Positions 17,227 through 58,100 of a stretch of DNA of 64,000 bases are shown piece after piece. Below the pieces are notes generated by a model. That model had not been told where the DNA came from. It made no database searches and saw only the letters and a list, made by a program, of their open reading frames with translations. The translations under genes were made by a program, and so were the position numbers. Source of the DNA: Octopus vulgaris (lineage: Eukaryota); contig OX597832.1 of assembly GCA_951406725.2 (NCBI GenBank), positions 23,870,001 through 23,934,000 of the forward strand, read 5' to 3'. The stretch's first letter is position 1. Each line of letters opens with the position of its first letter.

Positions 17227-17430
17227 AGACCGCGTGTGTACCATTGGCGATTTTTTCCTCTGTCTTCCCTTCCTTGGACCTTTCCTTTTTCTATGTTTCT
17301 GACGAAGAGCTCCGCTCGAAACATTAAATCCTCCTTCTTTCCTGAGGGTCCAATAATACTATACTTGTTCCAAGTCGTCGCGTTGTGTTTTCATGTTTGG
17401 ATTAACTATATATATATATATATATATATC
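17227..17430 (+). mobile_element. Penelope-like terminal-repeat element with hammerhead-like core CTGACGAAGAGCTCCGCTCGAAAC (17299-17322)
   Basis: Core motif seen; homologous to 43669-43812; (TA)n tail. Confidence 0.55.
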
Positions 17431-20648: not shown

Positions 20649-21055
20649 GGATCTTTTCAGTTTGAACGGCAGTTTTTTAAAATAATTTCCACGTAACGAA
20701 ACACTTTTAAACTTCGTATACTGGTAGAATGTGTTTATAAAACATCTTTCTCTCTTGGCTTTGAGAAAATTCTATAGTTTGTAAGATATTTGTTGTTTTT
20801 TTTCTTCAATTTCTGCAATTTCAACAAATCAATGACGTCTATTGAGGTAAAAAAAAAACATTCTGTGCCATATGAATATGTCCCTCGTTTAAGAAAGAGA
20901 TTAGGTTTATTTACATTTCTGAAGAAAAAAAGATACCCTTCCCCCTAACTCTAAAACAGATTGAAATGCAATAGATCGATTCTAGGGTCATAATTATGGG
21001 TGACAATTTCATATGACACCGCTAGAAAAAACTGCCGTTCAAACCGAAAAGATCC
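20649..21055. mobile_element. Non-autonomous DNA transposon, ~30-bp TIRs starting GGATCTTTTC, 8-bp TSD ctatttta (Merlin- or MULE-like)
   Basis: TSD at 20641-20648 and 21056-21063; TIRs read directly. Confidence 0.85.
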
Positions 21056-38180: not shown

Positions 38181-38775
38181 GGATCTTTTCGGTTTGAACG
38201 TCAGTTTTTTCTAGTGGTGTCATATGAAATTGTCACCCATAATTATGACCCTAGTATCGATCTATTGCATTTCAATGTTTTAAGATTAGGGTTAGTTAGG
38301 GTTAGGGGTGGGGGAAGGGTATCTTTTTTTCTTCAGAAATGTAAATAAACCCAATCTGTTTCTTAAACGAGGGACATATTCATACAGCACAGAATGTTTT
38401 TTACCTCAATAGACGTCAGTGATTGGTTGAAATTGCACAAATTGAAGAAAAAAAAACGGCAGTTTTTAACATAATTTCCACATAACTAAACACTTTTAAA
38501 CTTCATATACTGGTAGAATGTGTTTATAAAACATCTTTTTCTCTTGGCTTTATTGAGAAAATTCTACAGTTTGTAAGATATTTGTTGTTGTTTTTTTCTT
38601 CAAATTCTGCAATTTCAACTGATCAATGACGTCTATTGAGGTAAAAAAAAACATTCTGTGCCGTATGAATATGTCCCTCATTTAAGAAACAGATTGGGTT
38701 TATTTACATTTGTGAAGAAAAAAAGATACCCTTCCCCCACCCCTAACCCTAACCCTAAAACAGATTGAAATGTAA
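38181..38775. mobile_element. Rearranged GGATC-TIR family element with internal inverted duplication
   Basis: About 38270-38455 is the reverse complement of about 38590-38772; TTAGGG/CCCTAA motifs. Confidence 0.75.
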
Positions 38776-43652: not shown

Positions 43653-43812
43653 ATATATATATAAAATGTGACCACGTGTGTACCATTAGCGATTTTTTCC
43701 CCTCCGTCTTCCCTTCTCTGGATCTTTCCTTTTTCTATGTTTCTGACGAAGAGCTCCGCTCAAAACGTAAAACCCTCCTTCTTCCCTTCCTTCATGAGTG
43801 TCCAATAATACC
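43418..43812. mobile_element. Two related Penelope-like elements in opposite orientation around a (TA)n tract, with degenerate hammerhead cores
   Basis: Plus copy gtttCTGACGAaGAGCtccGCTCaAAACGTAaaac at 43739-43773; minus copy related to 8330-8520. Confidence 0.5.
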
Positions 43813-46618: not shown

Positions 46619-46747
46619 ACAAATAGTACTTTAGAGTCTCTAAACATGAATGGTAACAAGATTGGAAGAAACGGCGTGTTGATGTTTGCTCGGGCTCTTC
46701 AGTTCAATATTGGCTTAAAGGAATTGAATGTTGGCCATACCGACATG
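46619..46747 (+). CDS. LRRC34: LRRC34 exon 4 (TNSTLESLNMNGNKIGRNGVLMFARALQFNIGLKELNVGHTDM)
   Basis: tttcag / ATG|gtaagt; phase 0-0; LRR pattern; not in ORF track. Confidence 0.93.
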
Positions 46748-51457: not shown

Positions 51458-51587
51458 TTTGATTATAGTATCCAACAACATTGGAGTGAATGGAATTATA
51501 ACAATTATAGAGGTGTTGATAAACGTAAACAAGAGCCTGACATCTTTGTTCATATGGGGAAATGACGTGCAGCCCTCTGCTGGAGAA
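51458..51587 (+). CDS. LRRC34: LRRC34 exon 8 (LIIVSNNIGVNGIITIIEVLINVNKSLTSLFIWGNDVQPSAGE)
   Basis: ctgtag / GAA|gtaagt; VSNNI and IWGN motifs as recalled for LRRC34. Confidence 0.94.
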
Positions 51588-52485
51588 GTAAGTATGCATA
51601 CTAACATATATATACATACTTATATACACACATAATGAATGCATACAAGCATATATACATACATACATCCATACCAGAGGTGGACTGAGAGTATTAAGGA
51701 CTCTTGGGTATAACTGTAAAGTGTGGGCCCCTCAGAGCTCTGGGTCCTTGAGCAGTGTCCAATTGACCGACAGCTCAGTTCACCCCTGATCCATACATAC
51801 ATCCTTACACACATAAATACATACATACATGCACACATTTATATATTAAGCCTTACACACATGCATCCATATATAAACGCATACACGTATTCATATACAA
51901 AGTCTGAAATACATACATGCATACACATATTCATATATGGAAGCACTCCGTCGGTTACAACGACGAAGGTTCCGGTTGATCCGAATCAATGGAACAGCCT
52001 GCTCGTGAAATTAACGTGTAAGTGGCTGAGCACTCCACAGACACGTGTACCCTTAACGTAGTTCTCGGGGATATTCAGCGTGACACAGAGAGTGACAAGG
52101 CCGGCCCTTTGAAATACAGGTACAACAGAAACAGGAAGTAAGAGTGAGAGAAAGTTGTGGTGAAAGAGTACAGCAGGGATCACCACCATCCCCTGCCGGA
52201 GCCTCGTGGAGCTTTTAGGTGTTTTCGCTCAATAAACACTCACAACGCCCGGTCTGGGAATCGAAACCGTGATCCTATGACTGCAAGTTCGCTGCCCTAA
52301 CCACTGATCCATTGCGCCTCCACATTCATATATAAAGTTTTACATGCATGCATGCATACATAAATCCTTGCATATTTACATGCATGCATATGTAAATATT
52401 TAAATACAAACATGCATACATAGACACGTGCCTATGTATCTACGTTTGGAATACACATGCTTAAAAAATAATGAGACACTCACTA

Positions 52486-53170
52486 TCTATCTATCTATCC
52501 GCTCTGTCGAAGTCGACTCTCGGTTACCCATTGGATCAGTGTCCTCCAGTCAGTTCTATCCTGGGCCGCTTCTTTCAGATTGGCTATGTCCATTCTGGTA
52601 TCACTCTTGATGGTGTCAAGCCAGTGGGTTCTTGGTCAGCTTCTTCCTCTCTTGCCACTGACCATTCTGAGCATGATGTCCTTCTCCAGGGATTTTCTTC
52701 GCATAATATGATCGAAATATGCCTATCTACGCTTGGTGATCTTAGCTTCTAGCGACATTTTCGGCCTGATCTGCTTAAGAACTTCTCCATTGGTCGACAT
52801 CTTCCTCTCTTGCCACTGACCATTCCGTATATATATATATATATATATCCGCTCAGTCGAAGTCGACTCTCGGTTACTCGTTCGATCAGTGTCCTCCAGT
52901 CAGTTCTATCCTGGGCTGCTTCTTTCAGATTGGCTATGTCCATTCTGGTATCACTCTTGATGGTGTCAAGCCAGTGGGTTCTTGGTCGGCTTCTTCCTCT
53001 CTTGCCACTGACCATTCTGAGCATGATGTCCTTCTCCAGGGATTTTCTTCGCATAATATGACCAAAATATGCCAATCTACGCTTGGTGATCTTAGCTTCT
53101 AGCGACATTTTCGGCCTGATCTGCTTAAGAACTTCTTCATTGGTGAGCCTCGCTGTCCATGAGACACTCA
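52486..53170 (-). mobile_element. RTE (BovB-like) LINE 3' end, tandemly duplicated
   Basis: SWT...TNEEVL, RL.YFGHIMRR.SLEK.IM, GKRGR.RP...W.D.I, AQDR..WR; two near-identical copies. Confidence 0.9.
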
Positions 53171-53254: not shown

Positions 53255-53921
53255 TATGAGGAATGGTGAAATAGTCCCTGGCTTTGAATGAAAGAAAATA
53301 CAGGAAGATCAGTTAACCCTTTAGCATTCAAACCGGCCATATCTGGCCAAAATATTTAACCTGTTTTATATTGAGACTGACCAGATCTCGCCTCTCACCT
53401 CAGCCCTACCATGTCATTCTAAAACTAAAAAATCACATCACTGAAATCTCTAAACTACAAGATAATGCATGATTAATTCAAACCATTTTAAATAAACAAA
53501 CATCACATTTGACAGAATAATCTGAACTCTAAAGGGTTAATTGTGATTTTATTCCACATATTTCCTTCTCAGATTCACACACTTATTGCAGCAATTCTTC
53601 AGTTTTTCTAAACCTGGAAAAGAAGTCAGAAATTTGGGCCTCAAACCAAACCTTTTGCGATACCCTTAATGCCAGTAATTTTTCTGCACCCCTTATATAT
53701 ATAGGAGTAGGGACTGAAAAGTTCCTGGCTTTGTATAAAAGAAAATACAGACGGATCAGTTAATTATGATTTTATTCAACATATTTCCCTCTCAGATTCA
53801 CACACTTATTGCAGCGGTCCTTCAGGTTTTCTAAGCCCTGTAAAAGAACTCGGTAAGTTCAGCCTCCAACCAGGTCTTTCATGAGACCCTTAAAGCCAGG
53901 AACTTTTCAGCACCCCCTCAT
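53255..53921. mobile_element. Two adjacent Tc1/mariner-like MITE copies, the first interrupted by a TTAA MITE
   Basis: TIR-like ctgaaaagttcctggcttt / aaagccaggaacttttcag, TA flanks; duplicated body. Confidence 0.6.
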
Positions 53922-54151
53922 ACATACGCAGACAATAACCTACTCATATATATCTACAAACCCCTAGAACAGTCTTGACTTAACAATAAAAAAAAGAACT
54001 AATTATTTTGTTATAACTGGCTCCAATAATTCTGCAAATGAAAAAAAAAAAAACTTAAATAAATCCCAAATAAGGAAAAATATATAATATCATAATTATA
54101 TTTGGTAATATTGTGAATAAAGGGTTCAACGTTGGTTCTATGTCAGTGTGT

Positions 54152-54440
54152 GTATATAAGAATTTTTTGCATAATGAGATAAAAAAAAACCAGAGCTGTG
54201 TAGCTATTAGAGCATTTATAAGATAGAAGGTCTTACGGCTGTTTCTAGGATATTTTTAATTATATCCCTTCATCAGAGACGGTGTGAGAGGATAGTTAAG
54301 TCATAGTTAATCCTCTCACACCGTCTCTGATGAAGGGATATAATTAATTATCCTAGAAACAGCTTCTATCTATAAATGCTCTAATAGCTACACAGCCTTG
54401 GGATTTTTATCTTATTACACAAAAATTCTTATATATATAT
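54152..54440. mobile_element. ~290-bp imperfect palindrome: inverted pair of Penelope-like terminal repeats
   Basis: Arms such as atatcccttcatcagagacggtgtgagagga / tcctctcacaccgtctctgatgaagggatat; hammerhead core in both arms; TA-rich flanks. Confidence 0.65.
54230..54280 (-). ncRNA. Minimal type I hammerhead ribozyme motif (Penelope-like)
   Basis: Minus strand reads gtct-CTGATGA-a-gggata-loop-tatcct-a-GAAAC-agcc-GTA-agac: stem I gtct/agac, stem II, 2-bp stem III, GUA cleavage triplet. Confidence 0.65.
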
Positions 54441-54589
54441 ATGTATGTATATATAAATATGGGCTGTAGTAGAAGATATTTGCCCAAGATGCCACACAGT
54501 AGAACTATGTGGTTGGGAAGCAACCTTCTTACCACACAGCCGTGCCTGCACCTGATATCTTATCTTATTTTTTTTCGTCTTTCTTTAAG

Positions 54590-54712
54590 GCAGTTCACAG
54601 ACTTTTGGAAGAAAAGCGTCTTTCAGAAGATTGCATTGATGTTAAACCGTATAACATTGAGGGGATTTATCACCTTGGTCGGCAATTTCTTTTTCGCCAG
54701 AAGCAGCAGTAA
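54590..54712 (+). CDS. LRRC34: LRRC34 terminal exon copy 9a, truncated duplicate (AVHRLLEEKRLSEDCIDVKPYNIEGIYHLGRQFLFRQKQQ*); 385-aa isoform if used
   Basis: Intact ttctttaag acceptor, phase 0; first 35 codons differ from 9b at two residues, then repeat-derived sequence and stop. Confidence 0.6.
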   Translation, partial: AVHRLLEEKRLSEDCIDVKPYNIEGIYHLGRQFLFRQKQQ

Positions 54713-54944
54713 GACCTTCTATCTATAAATGCTGTGATATCTACACAGCCTTGGTTTTATTTTATCTTATTTCACAAAAAATTCTTATATATATATATAT
54801 GGGCTGTAGTAGAAGACATTTGCCCGAGGTGCGACTCACGGTGGAACTGAACTCTGAACCACGTGGTTGGGAAGCAAGCTTCTTACCACACAGCCATGCT
54901 CTGCACCTGATACCTTTTTTTTTTTTTATTCGTCTTTCTTTAAG

Positions 54945-55121
54945 GCAGTTCACAGACTTTTGGAAGCAAAGCGTCTTTCAGAAGATTGCATTGATGTTAA
55001 ACCGTATAACATTGAGGGGATTTTTCACCTTGGTCGGCAATTTCTTTTTACTCCTCGCCAATTCGGTAGAGCACCAAGTTATGGAAACTGTCTAACAACA
55101 TCTGCCATTCTGAAGCAATAA
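54945..55121 (+). CDS. LRRC34: LRRC34 terminal exon copy 9b, full length (AVHRLLEAKRLSEDCIDVKPYNIEGIFHLGRQFLFTPRQFGRAPSYGNCLTTSAILKQ*); 403-aa isoform
   Basis: ttctttaag acceptor; DVKPY...G and PSYG correspond to recalled DVEPF...G and STYG; AATAAA at 55186-55191. Confidence 0.85.
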   Translation, partial: AVHRLLEAKRLSEDCIDVKPYNIEGIFHLGRQFLFTPRQFGRAPSYGNCLTTSAILKQ

Positions 55122-58100
55122 GCGAGAGAATATGAAGTTATGTAAAAACCGAAACTTTCAGCAAGTCTTTGTATTCTTAGAGAGAAATAAAAAATTTAAA
55201 TACATATCGTTTGTCATTTACTTGCTTCAGTGTACTGGACTGTGGCCATCCTGGGGCACCACCTTGAAGGGTTTTTGTCAAACAAATCGATCCCCAGGAC
55301 TTATTTTTAAAGTCCGGTACTTATGCCAAACTTTTAAGCTATGGGGCCGTAAACAAACCAATAGCAGTTATCAACCAATTGTGGGGACAAAGCATCAGAA
55401 TGCAGGACCTGGTGCCAGTCTTGCTTCTCCTCAGTTCAAAGATTTCAGTAAAGTTGACTCCAACTTCATGCAAGCACAAAAGCATGCTGGGAAAATACTG
55501 CTCCGCTAAATGGAAGCCTTTTTCTGTCATTGCGGTTTTCTGGCACAAAACAGAGAGAGATCCTTGATGTCATCATCATCATCATCATTTAACATCCGCT
55601 TTCCATGCTAGCATGGGTTGGACGATTTGACTGAGGACTGGCGAACCAGATGGCTGCACCAGACTTCAATCTGATCTGGCAGGGTTTCTACAGCTGGATG
55701 TCCTTCCTAACCCCAACCACTCCGAGAGTGCAGTGGGTTCTTTTTGCGTGCCACCGGCACGAGAGCCAGTGAGGCGGTACTGGCAACAGCCACGCCCAAA
55801 TGGTGCTTTTTATGTGCCACCTGCACAGGAGCCAGTCCAGCGGCACTGGCAACGACCTCGCTCGAATGTTTTCTCACGTGCCACCGGCACAAGTGCTAGT
55901 AAGGCGACGCAGGTAACGATCATGCTCGAATGGTGTTTTTAACGTGCCATCAGCTTGGAGGCCAGCTTTTTGCTCTGGCCCTGATCTCACTCATATGGTA
56001 CTCTTAGCACTCCACTGGCACGGATGCCAATCATCAAATTTTATTTCGCACCAAAGGAAACACATAGTAAATGATCCTCAAGCACTCATGCTAAGTCCTC
56101 AACTTATTCCATTTACTAAAAGGTTGACAAGGCACCTGCAGGCCTCAAGAGACACATTCTTATTTCTTTATTGCCCACGAGGGGCTAAACAAAGGGATTA
56201 AGTCAATTAGATCAACCCCAGTGCATAAATGGTACTTAATTTATGGACCCTGAAAGGATGAAAAGCAAAGTCAACCTCGGCGGAATTTGAACTCAGAACA
56301 TAATGGCAGACAAAATACCTATTTCTTACTACCGACAAGGGACTAAACACAGAGGGGACAAACAAGGACAAAGGGATTAAGTCAATTAGATCAACCCCAG
56401 TGCGTAACTGGTACTTAATTTATCAACCCCGAAAGGATGAAAAGCAAAGTCAACCTCGGCGGAATTTGAACTCAGAACCTAACGGCAGACAAAATATGGC
56501 TAAGCATTTTCGTCTGGCATGCTAACATTTCTGCCAGCTCACCACCTCAAGAGACACATTCGTGTCCATAGAACATGATTACTGCTTTATTTTCCTGAAC
56601 CCTCATTTGTCGTTCATGATGATGATGATCATCATATATATATATATCCAAAAGCTGTTCCACTTGATTTCTTGTTTTTGTTTATCAATAATTCTTGCAA
56701 AACTTTTTCATGAATTCCCATGTTTTTATCCAAAACGGAGATGATCACCAATTCCTCCAAGCCAACCACAGAGTAACGGAGGTTGATGTTTATAATCGTT
56801 TGACATCTGTCTCCCATGCTGACTTGGGTTGGATGGCTTGCGAGAAGCTGGCAAGCCAGAGAATCATTAGCACGCCAGGTGAAATGCGTAGCCGTATTTC
56901 GTCTGCCGTTACGTTCTGAGTTCAAATTCCGCCGAGGTCGACTTTGCTTTTCATCCTTTCGGGGTCGATAAATTAAGTACCAGTTACACACTGGGGTCTA
57001 TGTAATCGACTTAATCCATTTGTCTGTCCTTGTTTGTGTTTGGCCCCTTGTGGGTAGTAAAGAAATGGGCTTGAGAGGATCTGGCAAGCCAGAGAATCAC
57101 GCCATGCTCCATTTATCTGCTTCGGCACGATTTCATCAGCTGGATACCCTTCCTAACATCAACCACTTTACAGAGTGTACTGGGAGCTTTTGACATGACA
57201 CTGACAACAGCAGGGTCACTAAGTAACTTGTGAAACGCAGACCTTTCAGCTGGGAGAGGGACCGCATACATGATGCACGGAAGAAATTTTAAAAGGAATG
57301 AACAAATATCAAAACAATTTATTGGTTTATATTATTTTATTTTTCCATTTCCAGCATTCCACCAGGACATGGATGAGGTTCTGTATTTCTTTTATTCTTT
57401 TTTTTTTATAATACAAAATTTAAAAAACTGCATATTATATAACTGGAGAATGTATTTTTTATTTTTTTATTTTACAATCATGTCTTTCACCACAGCCAAT
57501 AACTCAACCAGGAGTGGAGCTGTTTTTAACCAATATTCAAAAAATAAAAGATCAGCTGTACAGAATATAAACGCTAATAAAGTTTTATTTTACATTTTTA
57601 CAAGGAAAACAAATATTAAAAAAAAAATGTGGAGAAGAAACATCTTTTCTTTCTTGTACGTATTTCAGTCACTGGACTGTGGCCATACTGGAGCACTGCC
57701 TTGAAGGGTGCAATCAAACGAATCAACCATTCAACAATTTTTTGTTTTTTTAAGTTTGGTATTTATTCTATCAAATTGCTTCTGCCAAATTGCTAAGTTA
57801 CAAGGACATAAACAAACCAACACTGGCTGTTAAATGATGGGGAGAAAAAAAAAACACACACACACACATATATATTTATACATCATGGGCTTCAACACGG
57901 CAGTAACTTCCGCCTGCCAAATTCAATCACAAAGCTCCGGTCGGCTCAGGGTTATAGTGGAAGACACCTACCCAAAGTGCCACGCAGTGGGACTGAACCC
58001 GAAACCATGTAGCTCAGAAGCAAGCTCCCTAACCACACAGCCATACCCGCGCCTATATATTTATACATGGGCTTCAACACAGTTTCTGTCTCCCAAATTC

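What the first reader, a model, noticed from the sequence alone, without database searches (positions are those of the whole stretch)
54694..54730. Stop codon of exon 9a overlaps the cleavage triplet of a duplicated hammerhead half
Seen: after QFLF, exon 9a continues cgcCAGAAGCAGCAGTAAGACCTTCTATC. This aligns with the element's hammerhead 3' half tagAAACAGCCGTAAGACCTTCTATC (minus strand 54222-54246). The new residues QKQQ and the TAA therefore come from GAAAC-loop-GTA-agac. The upstream + arm (54356-54370) has lost the gtaagacc segment that this copy keeps, so that deletion probably postdates the duplication. Inference: exonisation of a ribozyme remnant. In pre-mRNA the 5' half-core (gtctCTGATGA, 54323-54333) and this decayed 3' half flank the 9a acceptor. 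A split ribozyme is conceivable but unlikely because GAAAC has become GAAGC.
Basis: partly seen in the sequence, partly recalled or inferred. Interest (0 to 1): 0.72.

Follow-up and report, generated by a model that had tools for sequence, protein, structure and literature searches.

The report
Octopus gene borrows ribozyme stop codon
A short duplication gave the octopus LRRC34 gene a second, cut-off copy of its last exon that runs into a broken self-cutting-RNA (hammerhead) repeat and takes its stop codon from it; this copy is likely spliced into the messenger RNA, and the ribozyme is most likely a passive relic rather than an active switch.

Summary
54699-54723 matches the minus-strand hammerhead 3' half at 23/25 (next best in the window 17/25). 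The stop TAA (54710-54712) overlaps the GTA cleavage triplet. The gene is Octopus LRRC34. A ~345-bp tandem duplication, broken inside one arm of a Penelope-type inverted repeat, made a truncated last exon (9a) upstream of the ancestral one (9b). An O. sinensis RefSeq model ends exactly as 9a, and contigs of two putative RNA runs cross the junction; one begins exactly at the 9a acceptor. The repeat is a high-copy family that keeps GAAAC-nnnn-GTAAGAC.

Two corrections. Only KQQ-stop (13 nt) comes from the repeat; R and most of the first Q are exon-derived. GAAGC does not exclude a split ribozyme, because the upstream arm supplies an intact GAAAC and a full core can be drawn. What blocks it is the 130-bp palindrome (predicted cost about 78 kcal/mol), and junction-spanning contigs are intact.

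Verdict: a new case of a known process (terminal-exon duplication, stop and 3' UTR donated by a repeat). The overlap with the cleavage site is probably chance. A gated split ribozyme has about 4% probability.

The parts
51458..51587 (+). LRRC34 penultimate exon ('exon 8'), 130 nt, AG/GT flanked, ends in phase 0
   Evidence: translation identical to P0001
54104..54294 (-). Arm M of an inverted pair of a high-copy repeat (likely Penelope-type 3' end); left edge approximate
   Evidence: inverted match 54153-54435; depth bins
54230..54280 (-). Complete type I minimal hammerhead motif on the antisense strand: gtct, CTGATGA, helix II, GAAAC, AGCC, GTA, AGAC
   Evidence: no Rfam hammerhead hit
54310..54435 (+). 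Arm A; pairs with arm M into a ~130-bp hairpin in the pre-mRNA; first 38 nt identical to M
54323..54364 (+). Sense-strand hammerhead 5' part (gtct, CTGATGA, helix II, intact GAAAC) that has lost its own cleavage site by a 9-nt deletion
54461..54555 (-). Truncated copy of a very abundant interspersed repeat (called SINE from recall), duplicated with the unit
   Evidence: other copies in window; depth
54590..54712 (+). Coding part of exon 9a, the truncated proximal copy of the last exon (40 aa + stop)
   Evidence: P0004 ends identically; contigs 12, 13, 26
54695..54699 (+). CGCCA: exon-derived (R38 and CA of Q39) after an in-frame 6-nt loss; duplication junction with about 1 nt microhomology
54700..54715 (+). 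Hammerhead 3' half of copy B: GAAGC (A15.1 to G), AGCA, GTA (54709-54711), AGAC; gives KQQ and stop TAA (54710-54712)
54699..54791 (+). Copy B of the repeat arm; start of the second duplication unit and of the 9a 3' UTR
54801..54910 (-). Second copy of the interspersed repeat
54945..55121 (+). Exon 9b, ancestral full-length last exon (58 aa, keeps APSYG); also lies within the likely 3' UTR of the 9a form
   Evidence: contig 28 runs unspliced from 54871 into 9b
55186..55191 (+). First canonical AATAAA downstream of both stops; likely shared poly(A) signal
   Evidence: contigs 15 and 29 end at 55180 and 55165

Best explanation
A ~345-bp tandem duplication copied the 3' end of a hammerhead-bearing repeat, an interspersed repeat, the splice acceptor and the first 37 codons of the last LRRC34 exon; the truncated upstream copy (9a) is likely spliced as an alternative last exon and reads 13 nt into the repeat, where a TAA that overlaps the hammerhead cleavage triplet stops it, and the ribozyme is likely inert. 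Steps: (1) two 5'-truncated ends of a Penelope-type element inserted head to head in the last intron (arrangement shown; Penelope identity inferred). (2) A duplication with one break inside the palindrome arm and one in the exon (shown; a DNA-level slip at the hairpin is inferred). (3) Splicing to the proximal acceptor gives a protein ending QFLFRQKQQ, 18 residues shorter, that keeps the whole confidently predicted fold but loses the conserved PSYG tail; the rest of the unit and exon 9b become its 3' UTR (junction-crossing contigs shown; splicing and UTR use inferred). (4) Both sense-strand hammerhead copies are broken, the arm with the catalytic 5' half is predicted to be locked in a long hairpin, and it is removed with the intron (breaks shown; inactivity predicted).
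For: O. sinensis RefSeq X1 (P0004) ends exactly as 9a; X2 (P0001) and O. vulgaris P0002 end as 9b. So the junction is in an independent assembly of a second species. One search, run X2: a 516-nt contig fits only from 54590 (the 9a acceptor) to 54668 with the 9a base at 54612, and its first 437 nt fit nowhere on the stretch; a second contig crosses the junction 54639-54820 with no difference. Run X4: a contig crosses 54639-54885 and another runs unspliced 54871-54997 into 9b; only the 9a base is seen at 54612. Run X3 (DNA?) crosses the junction too (54527-54733). An early stop is common: 22% of random window positions stop within five codons, as do 46 of the 117 entry points into the repeat arm that reach a stop; 4 of the 117 stop at this TAA. 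The split ribozyme costs about 78 kcal/mol with the M arm present. The AlphaFold model of the 9b form is confident to about residue 370, and 377-397 has pLDDT under 50; 9a keeps residues to 374. 4 of 37 homologues end at about the same place. 9a differs at 0 of 40 residues between the two species; 9b at 3 of 58, against 0 of 339 upstream (Fisher p = 0.003).
Against: The runs are only guessed or unlabelled as RNA and are held as contigs. The letters upstream of contig 12 were not shown, so the exon 8-9a joint is inferred, not read. Depth cannot rank isoforms (tool's own warning). Only 4 of 24 listed runs were laid and 32 of about 75,500 pieces shown. P0004 is a gene model whose RNA support I did not see. 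9a loses a motif kept by most homologues (P in 28 of 37, G in 28 of 37). The two differences between 9a and 9b are both non-synonymous with no synonymous change in 23 sites, which fits gene conversion at least as well as selection on 9a protein. No Penelope ORF was found beside the repeat. A complete split core can be drawn across the two sense copies.
Confidence: 0.8

Rival explanations
1. Gated discontinuous hammerhead. Arm A acts as enzyme strand (gtct, CUGAUGA, helix II, GAAAC) and copy B as substrate (GUA^AGAC), forming a type I hammerhead with ~330 nt in loop 3 that would cut the pre-mRNA inside the 9a stop codon whenever arm A is free of arm M (editing, unwinding, or an internal start).
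For: All 13 core positions of the consensus in PMC3088659 (passages read) are canonical in the hybrid. Helix I has 4 bp, helix II 6 bp, helix III 7 of the first 9 pairs. A lost only its substrate part and B only its enzyme part. Without arm M the hybrid is as likely in the nearest-neighbour model (2e-4, 5.2 kcal/mol, 54318-54725) as the intact M monomer (2.9e-4). This is the dimer geometry known for Penelope hammerheads (PMC4209133, parts 1-2 read).
Against: With arm M, which is transcribed first, the probability is about 1e-55. Slightly longer contexts without M already fall to 6e-6 and 4e-8. B has a derived mismatch at helix III position 3. The 10.1-11.1 pair is not the canonical G-C, and there is an extra A before G12. 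Such hammerheads cleave weakly even as dimers (PMC4209133). Contigs in X2 and X4 cross the site intact. The enzyme strand is intronic and absent from the mRNA.
Confidence: 0.04
2. 9a is a dead pseudo-exon kept similar to 9b by gene conversion. The RefSeq X1 model and the contigs reflect mis-mapping or intronic RNA or DNA.
For: No synonymous difference in 23 sites and an identical last 16 nt of the acceptor, against about 10% difference in the flanks. Signs of conversion between the M and A arms (38-nt perfect stem, shared base at 54204). The joint letters were not seen.
Against: Contig 12 starts exactly at the acceptor with the 9a base 22 nt inside, which needs 31-mers joining non-intronic sequence to the 9a allele. 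In X4 only the 9a base is seen at 54612, and the 9b base is on a contig joined to intron B.
Confidence: 0.08
3. The duplication was RNA-templated: a Penelope reverse transcriptase copied read-through RNA in place, with the hammerhead setting the 5' end.
For: One break lies inside the hammerhead, and partial tandem copies are typical of these elements (PMC8557442, passages read).
Against: A cleavage product would begin at AGAC (54712); the unit begins 13 nt upstream (54699). No tail or target-site duplication is evident at the junction.
Confidence: 0.07
4. Assembly artefact (two haplotypes joined in tandem).
For: Near-identical exon copies next to a palindrome and microsatellite.
Against: The same 9a end is in an O. 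sinensis model. Junction-crossing contigs occur in 3 of the 4 runs laid, from two organism labels. The flanks differ by about 10%.
Confidence: 0.01

Closest known systems
Minimal type I hammerheads of metazoan Penelope-like elements (Cervera and de la Pena 2014, PMC4209133, parts 1-2 of 4 read; review PMC6765202, passages)
   Same: Long helix II, 4-bp helix I, extra nucleotide after A9, short palindromic helix III in the family, high copy number, pairs on opposite strands 100-700 bp apart.
   Different: G10.1-C11.1 is not met (G-U plus an extra A before G12). Most family depth has C at core position 4. No element ORF is seen here. One copy has become coding sequence.
Inverted 5'-truncated Penelope-like insertions (Craig et al. 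2021, PMC8557442, passages read)
   Same: Two short hammerhead-bearing 3' ends joined head to head as an inverted repeat.
   Different: No reverse transcriptase or GIY-YIG sequence is linked, so family and clade were not assigned.
Tandem duplication of a terminal exon: oyster AOX exon 10 (PMC5589949, abstract) and cichlid agrp2 exon 3 (PMC6916709, passages)
   Same: A duplicated last exon; alternative 3' splicing to the first or second copy. The first copy carries new changes (AOX), and in agrp2 mainly the proximal copy is expressed.
   Different: Here the proximal copy is partial and takes its stop and last residues from a repeat; no regulation or function has been shown.
Discontinuous hammerhead in mammalian Clec2 3' UTRs (Martick et al. 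2008, seen only through passages of PMC2950038 and PMC6765202)
   Same: Enzyme and substrate strands separated by hundreds of nucleotides near the end of a gene.
   Different: The Clec2 ribozyme lies wholly in the mRNA, is conserved and was shown to cleave. Here the enzyme strand is intronic, predicted to be buried in a palindrome, and untested.

Membership tests
Type I hammerhead (copy M, antisense) | Core C3 U4 G5 A6 N7 G8 A9, G12 A13 A14, A15.1-U16.1, H17 | tested here: met
   consensus from PMC3088659 passages
Type I hammerhead (copy M, antisense) | Three helices with no mispair next to the core | tested here: inconclusive
   Helix I 4 bp, helix II 7 bp closing on G-U with an A on each side, helix III 2 bp. 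The hammerhead fold lies about 4-5 kcal/mol above the predicted optimum.
Type I hammerhead (copy M, antisense) | Rfam hammerhead model match | tested here: not met
   0 hits at gathering score in the window; none among 18 hits to E=10 in 54000-55300
Type I hammerhead (any copy) | Site-specific self-cleavage | not testable with these tools
   needs in vitro transcription
Type I hammerhead (copy A alone) | NUH triplet and 3' strand of helix I | tested here: not met
   9-nt deletion
Type I hammerhead (copy B alone) | CUGANGA, helix II and A15.1 | tested here: not met
   5' half absent; GAAGC
Penelope min-HHR | Long helix II, short helix I, unpaired base after A9 | tested here: met
   against PMC4209133
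Penelope min-HHR | Palindromic 15.2-16.2 and loop 3 | tested here: met
   Family state at 54237 (92-99.8% of depth in 4 of 4 runs) gives ACAGCTGT; the local copies M and B have each lost it
Penelope min-HHR | G10.1-C11.1 pair | tested here: not met
   G-U pair plus an extra A in M and A
Penelope min-HHR | Large dispersed family | tested here: met
   Summed depth about 560 and 1,500 times that of single-locus contigs in X3 and X10; a rough sign, not a copy number
Penelope-like element | Link to an RT plus GIY-YIG ORF in a pseudo-LTR | not testable with these tools
   No genome held; only about 30 nt upstream of the core remain; the repeat library is on Zenodo, and the one supplement held has no match to 4 motifs
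Alternatively spliced duplicated terminal exon | Tandem copies, each with an intact acceptor | tested here: met
Alternatively spliced duplicated terminal exon | Both copies joined to the upstream exon in mRNA | tested here: inconclusive
   9a: contig starting at the acceptor, joint letters not shown. Both forms exist as RefSeq models. No listed contig shows the exon 8-9b joint.
Exonisation in the strict sense | Splice site supplied by the mobile element | tested here: not met
   The acceptor is a copy of the gene's own
Discontinuous hammerhead (Clec2-like) | Complete core across two separated strands | tested here: met
Discontinuous hammerhead (Clec2-like) | Both strands accessible in one natural RNA | tested here: not met
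   Predicted only: about 78 kcal/mol penalty with arm M; the enzyme strand is spliced out

The most novel reading that the evidence does not exclude
The two sense-strand remnants are complementary halves of one discontinuous hammerhead, with arm A as enzyme and copy B as substrate. It cuts LRRC34 pre-mRNA inside the stop codon of the new last exon, and the upstream inverted arm is a built-in off-switch that editing or unwinding could release. The choice between the short and the ancestral C-terminus would then be ribozyme-gated.
Probability: 0.04. Interest if true: 0.8.

Novelty: new member of a known kind. Interest (0 to 1): 0.3.

Why it matters
As it most likely stands, this is a clear small example of how a partial duplication beside a retroelement palindrome gives a gene a new last exon. 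There are hints that the new exon is taking over: the ancestral exon changes faster than the rest of the protein, and 9a is unchanged between two species. It matters to LRRC34 annotation in octopus and little beyond. If the split ribozyme were active, it would be a self-cleavage site inside a stop codon, controlled by an antisense arm; that can be tested with one in vitro transcription.

Tried and rejected
No own genome is held, so no genome-wide family alignment or covariation test was possible; family states come only from the variant tables (14 substitution rows and 8 indel rows not shown). One pattern scan of metagenome contigs found 0 loci. Rfam gave no hammerhead hit; the miRNA-type hits only reflect the palindrome. 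No RNA holder was listed on record: the RNA labels are guesses. Run X10 (organism C) has no cover over 54614-54664 and one 393-nt contig across 9b; this might mean it lacks the duplication, but a gap proves nothing. Contig depths in X4 (253 at the 9a junction, 181 across intron B, 117 in 9b) would fit 9a as the main form, but the tool warns that they cannot rank parts of a gene, so they are not used as evidence. My first split-ribozyme test had indices off by one; it was redone (pairing probabilities, and a forced fold using B's GAAG) and in the correct geometry. In one search one upstream exon (32 aa) was mis-indexed and not compared, so the 0/339 figure comes from the whole-protein alignment of P0001 with P0002. 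The Lunse et al. dimer paper (PMC5785218) is not held; I saw only its title and the review's statement. Searches 'exonization + hammerhead ribozyme + stop codon' (1 unrelated listing) and 'hammerhead + Penelope + octopus' (4 listings, none on this locus) found no report of this case; most subscription journals are not covered. Earlier scan notes: nothing by place, sequence or full word set; one search listed 8 notes on other genomes. Pfam finds no domain in either last exon. The supplements of PMC4209133, which hold larger hammerhead alignments, were not read.

Full report
Observation. The sequence at 54694-54730 is as quoted. The reading frame from the acceptor at 54590 gives AVHRLLEEKRLSEDCIDVKPYNIEGIYHLGRQFLFRQKQQ and stops at 54710-54712. 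The 25-nt 3' half of the minus-strand hammerhead copy (called M here) matches 54699-54723 at 23 of 25; nothing else on either strand of the window exceeds 17 of 25. The triplet GTA is 54709-54711, so a cut after it would fall inside the stop codon. The plus arm (A) lacks 9 nt that include GTA and AGAC. One correction: codon alignment shows that CGC-CA equals R38 and the first two bases of Q39 of the downstream exon after an in-frame 6-nt loss. Only G-AAG-CAG-CAG-TAA (13 nt) is repeat-derived.

The gene. The downstream exon (9b, 54945-55121) finds LRRC34-like proteins of Octopus. Their cluster has four members. O. vulgaris P0002 ends exactly as 9b; O. sinensis isoform X2 (P0001) ends as 9b with three changes; O. 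sinensis isoform X1 (P0004) ends exactly as 9a, including both 9a-specific residues and RQKQQ; the O. bimaculoides model stops earlier and is uninformative. The window is therefore O. vulgaris or a very close relative (inference), and the junction exists in an independent assembly of a second species. 9b is the ancestral end: among 37 non-Octopus homologues the tail motif is well kept (R 24, P 28, Y 24, G 28 of 37).

Anatomy. An inverted repeat spans 54153-54435 and folds as one long hairpin (z = -20 for 54140-54740); the first 38 nt of the arms are identical. A direct duplication pairs 54355-54694 with 54708-55049 (83.5% over 358 columns), and copy B begins at 54699. Each unit holds the end of the repeat arm, a TA run, a truncated abundant repeat (SINE is my recalled label), the acceptor and the start of the last exon. 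The flanks differ at 6/64, 9/95 and 5/34 aligned bases; the exon copies differ at 2/105, both non-synonymous, with none in 23 synonymous sites (exon plus last 16 acceptor bases against the flanks, Fisher p = 0.0013). Selection on both copies or gene conversion could give this. Conversion is active at this locus: M and A share a base at 54204 that B and 85-100% of family depth lack.

The repeat. In two large runs the arm has summed depth about 560 and 1,500 times that of single-locus contigs, so it is a large dispersed family. The family differs from M at 54237 in 92-99.8% of depth in all four runs, which gives GAAAC-AGCT-GTAAGAC with a palindromic stem III; the listed indels at 54255-54256 fall in loop 2. 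The head-to-head pair of short ends matches the inverted 5'-truncated copies described for these elements (PMC8557442, passages), which make up 6.83% of the O. vulgaris genome (PMC13282606, supplement row). Against full membership: G10.1-C11.1 is not met, 86-89% of family depth in the two large runs (47-59% in the other two) has C at core position 4, a variant said to lower activity (PMC3088659, passage), Rfam has no hit, and no element ORF could be linked.

Is 9a used? Four of 24 listed runs were laid on 53900-55400, all as contigs, with RNA status guessed or unlabelled. In X2 a 516-nt contig fits only over its last 79 nt, from 54590 exactly, with the 9a base at 54612; its first 437 nt fit nowhere on the stretch, as expected for spliced upstream exons (130, 153, 119 nt and so on), but those letters were not shown. 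It abuts a contig that crosses the junction without a difference (54639-54820) and one for 9b (54994-55180). In X4 a contig crosses 54639-54885, another runs unspliced from 54871 into 9b, only the 9a base is seen at 54612, and the TA bin upstream has no cover (repeat letters are skipped there, so that gap is weak). This is the pattern expected if 9a is a spliced last exon whose 3' UTR runs through copy B and 9b to the AATAAA at 55186. Two further hints: 9a is unchanged at 40 residues between the two species while 9b has 3 of 58 changed against 0 of 339 upstream (p = 0.003; small numbers); and the part that 9a loses is the low-confidence tail of the predicted structure (pLDDT under 50 for 377-397, fold complete by about 370), with 4 of 37 homologues ending near the same place.

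Is the overlap meaningful? Probably not. A stop within five codons occurs at 22% of random window positions and at 46 of the 117 entry points into the arm that reach a stop; 4 of the 117 end at this TAA. GTA followed by A spells TAA in one frame of every family copy, so the stop came with the repeat.

Split ribozyme. That is the wrong test. In the dimer geometry the enzyme strand brings CUGAUGA, helix II and GAAAC, and arm A has all three intact; B needs only GUA and AGAC, which it has. The hybrid has a canonical core, helix I of 4 bp, helix II of 6 bp and 7 of 9 pairs in helix III. In 54318-54725 its predicted share (2e-4) equals that of the intact M monomer (2.9e-4); it falls to 6e-6 and 4e-8 in slightly longer contexts and to about 1e-55 (78 kcal/mol) once arm M, which is transcribed first, is included. 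The enzyme strand is lost on splicing, and contigs cross the site intact. The nearest precedent is the discontinuous hammerhead of Clec2 3' UTRs (passages of PMC2950038 and PMC6765202), which lies wholly in the mRNA and was shown to work. I give the gated form 4%.

Comparison and verdict. It works like the duplicated terminal exons of oyster AOX (PMC5589949, abstract) and cichlid agrp2 (PMC6916709, passages), with the difference that the proximal copy is partial and borrows its stop from a repeat. It is not exonisation in the strict sense, since the acceptor is the gene's own. Hammerhead-bearing repeats overlapping last exons and 3' UTRs are reported in frogs (bioRxiv 10.64898/2026.07.22.740005, results part 1 read). 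Two searches found no report of this locus or of a stop codon on a hammerhead cleavage site, within the limits of the library. Shown: the anatomy, the repeat origin of the stop, conservation in two species and junction-crossing contigs. Inferred: splicing, dominance of 9a, Penelope identity, the duplication mechanism and ribozyme inactivity. Novelty: new member of a known kind. Interest 0.3.

Noticed in passing
window 54230-54280 (-), 54323-54364 (+), 54700-54715 (+): Both sense-strand hammerhead copies in the LRRC34 intron are broken in the core while the antisense copy keeps a full core. This could reflect selection against sense-strand cleavage, but it is a single locus.
   Followed up: partly
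window 54275 and 54328: M and A both have U at hammerhead core position 4, whereas 86-89% of family depth in the two large runs has C: a repeat family with a mostly non-canonical core.
   Followed up: partly
window 17293-17332 (+) and 43737-43776 (+): A second minimal-hammerhead repeat family (CTGACGA, short helix II, GAAAC/AAAAC) in two copies, one inside an LRRC34 intron on the sense strand with a broken G12.
   Followed up: no
window 20913-20969 (+) and 38267-38342 (-): A third hammerhead-like family (CTGAAGA ... AAAAC ... ATT) whose central part contains ccctaa-type, telomere-like repeats.
   Followed up: no
window 52484-53144: A recent 350-bp tandem duplication (1.9 copies, 95% alike) in the same intron.
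   Followed up: no
window 54153-54435: A ~130-bp near-perfect double-stranded stem in the pre-mRNA about 155 nt upstream of the 9a acceptor: a likely substrate for A-to-I editing or small-RNA production (inference).
   Followed up: partly
window 54945-55121: Exon 9b has three amino-acid changes between O. vulgaris and O. sinensis while the other 339 aligned residues have none, suggesting relaxed constraint on the ancestral tail.
   Followed up: yes
proteins P0035, P0036, P0038, P0039: Four unnamed LRRC34 homologues end naturally at YLFSH, about where 9a stops, so the PSYG tail is absent in another lineage too.
   Followed up: partly
window 46620-46747: The O. vulgaris model P0002 lacks six residues (VGHTDM) that the window encodes at the end of this exon and that O. 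sinensis P0001 has: probably an alternative or mis-predicted donor.
   Followed up: no
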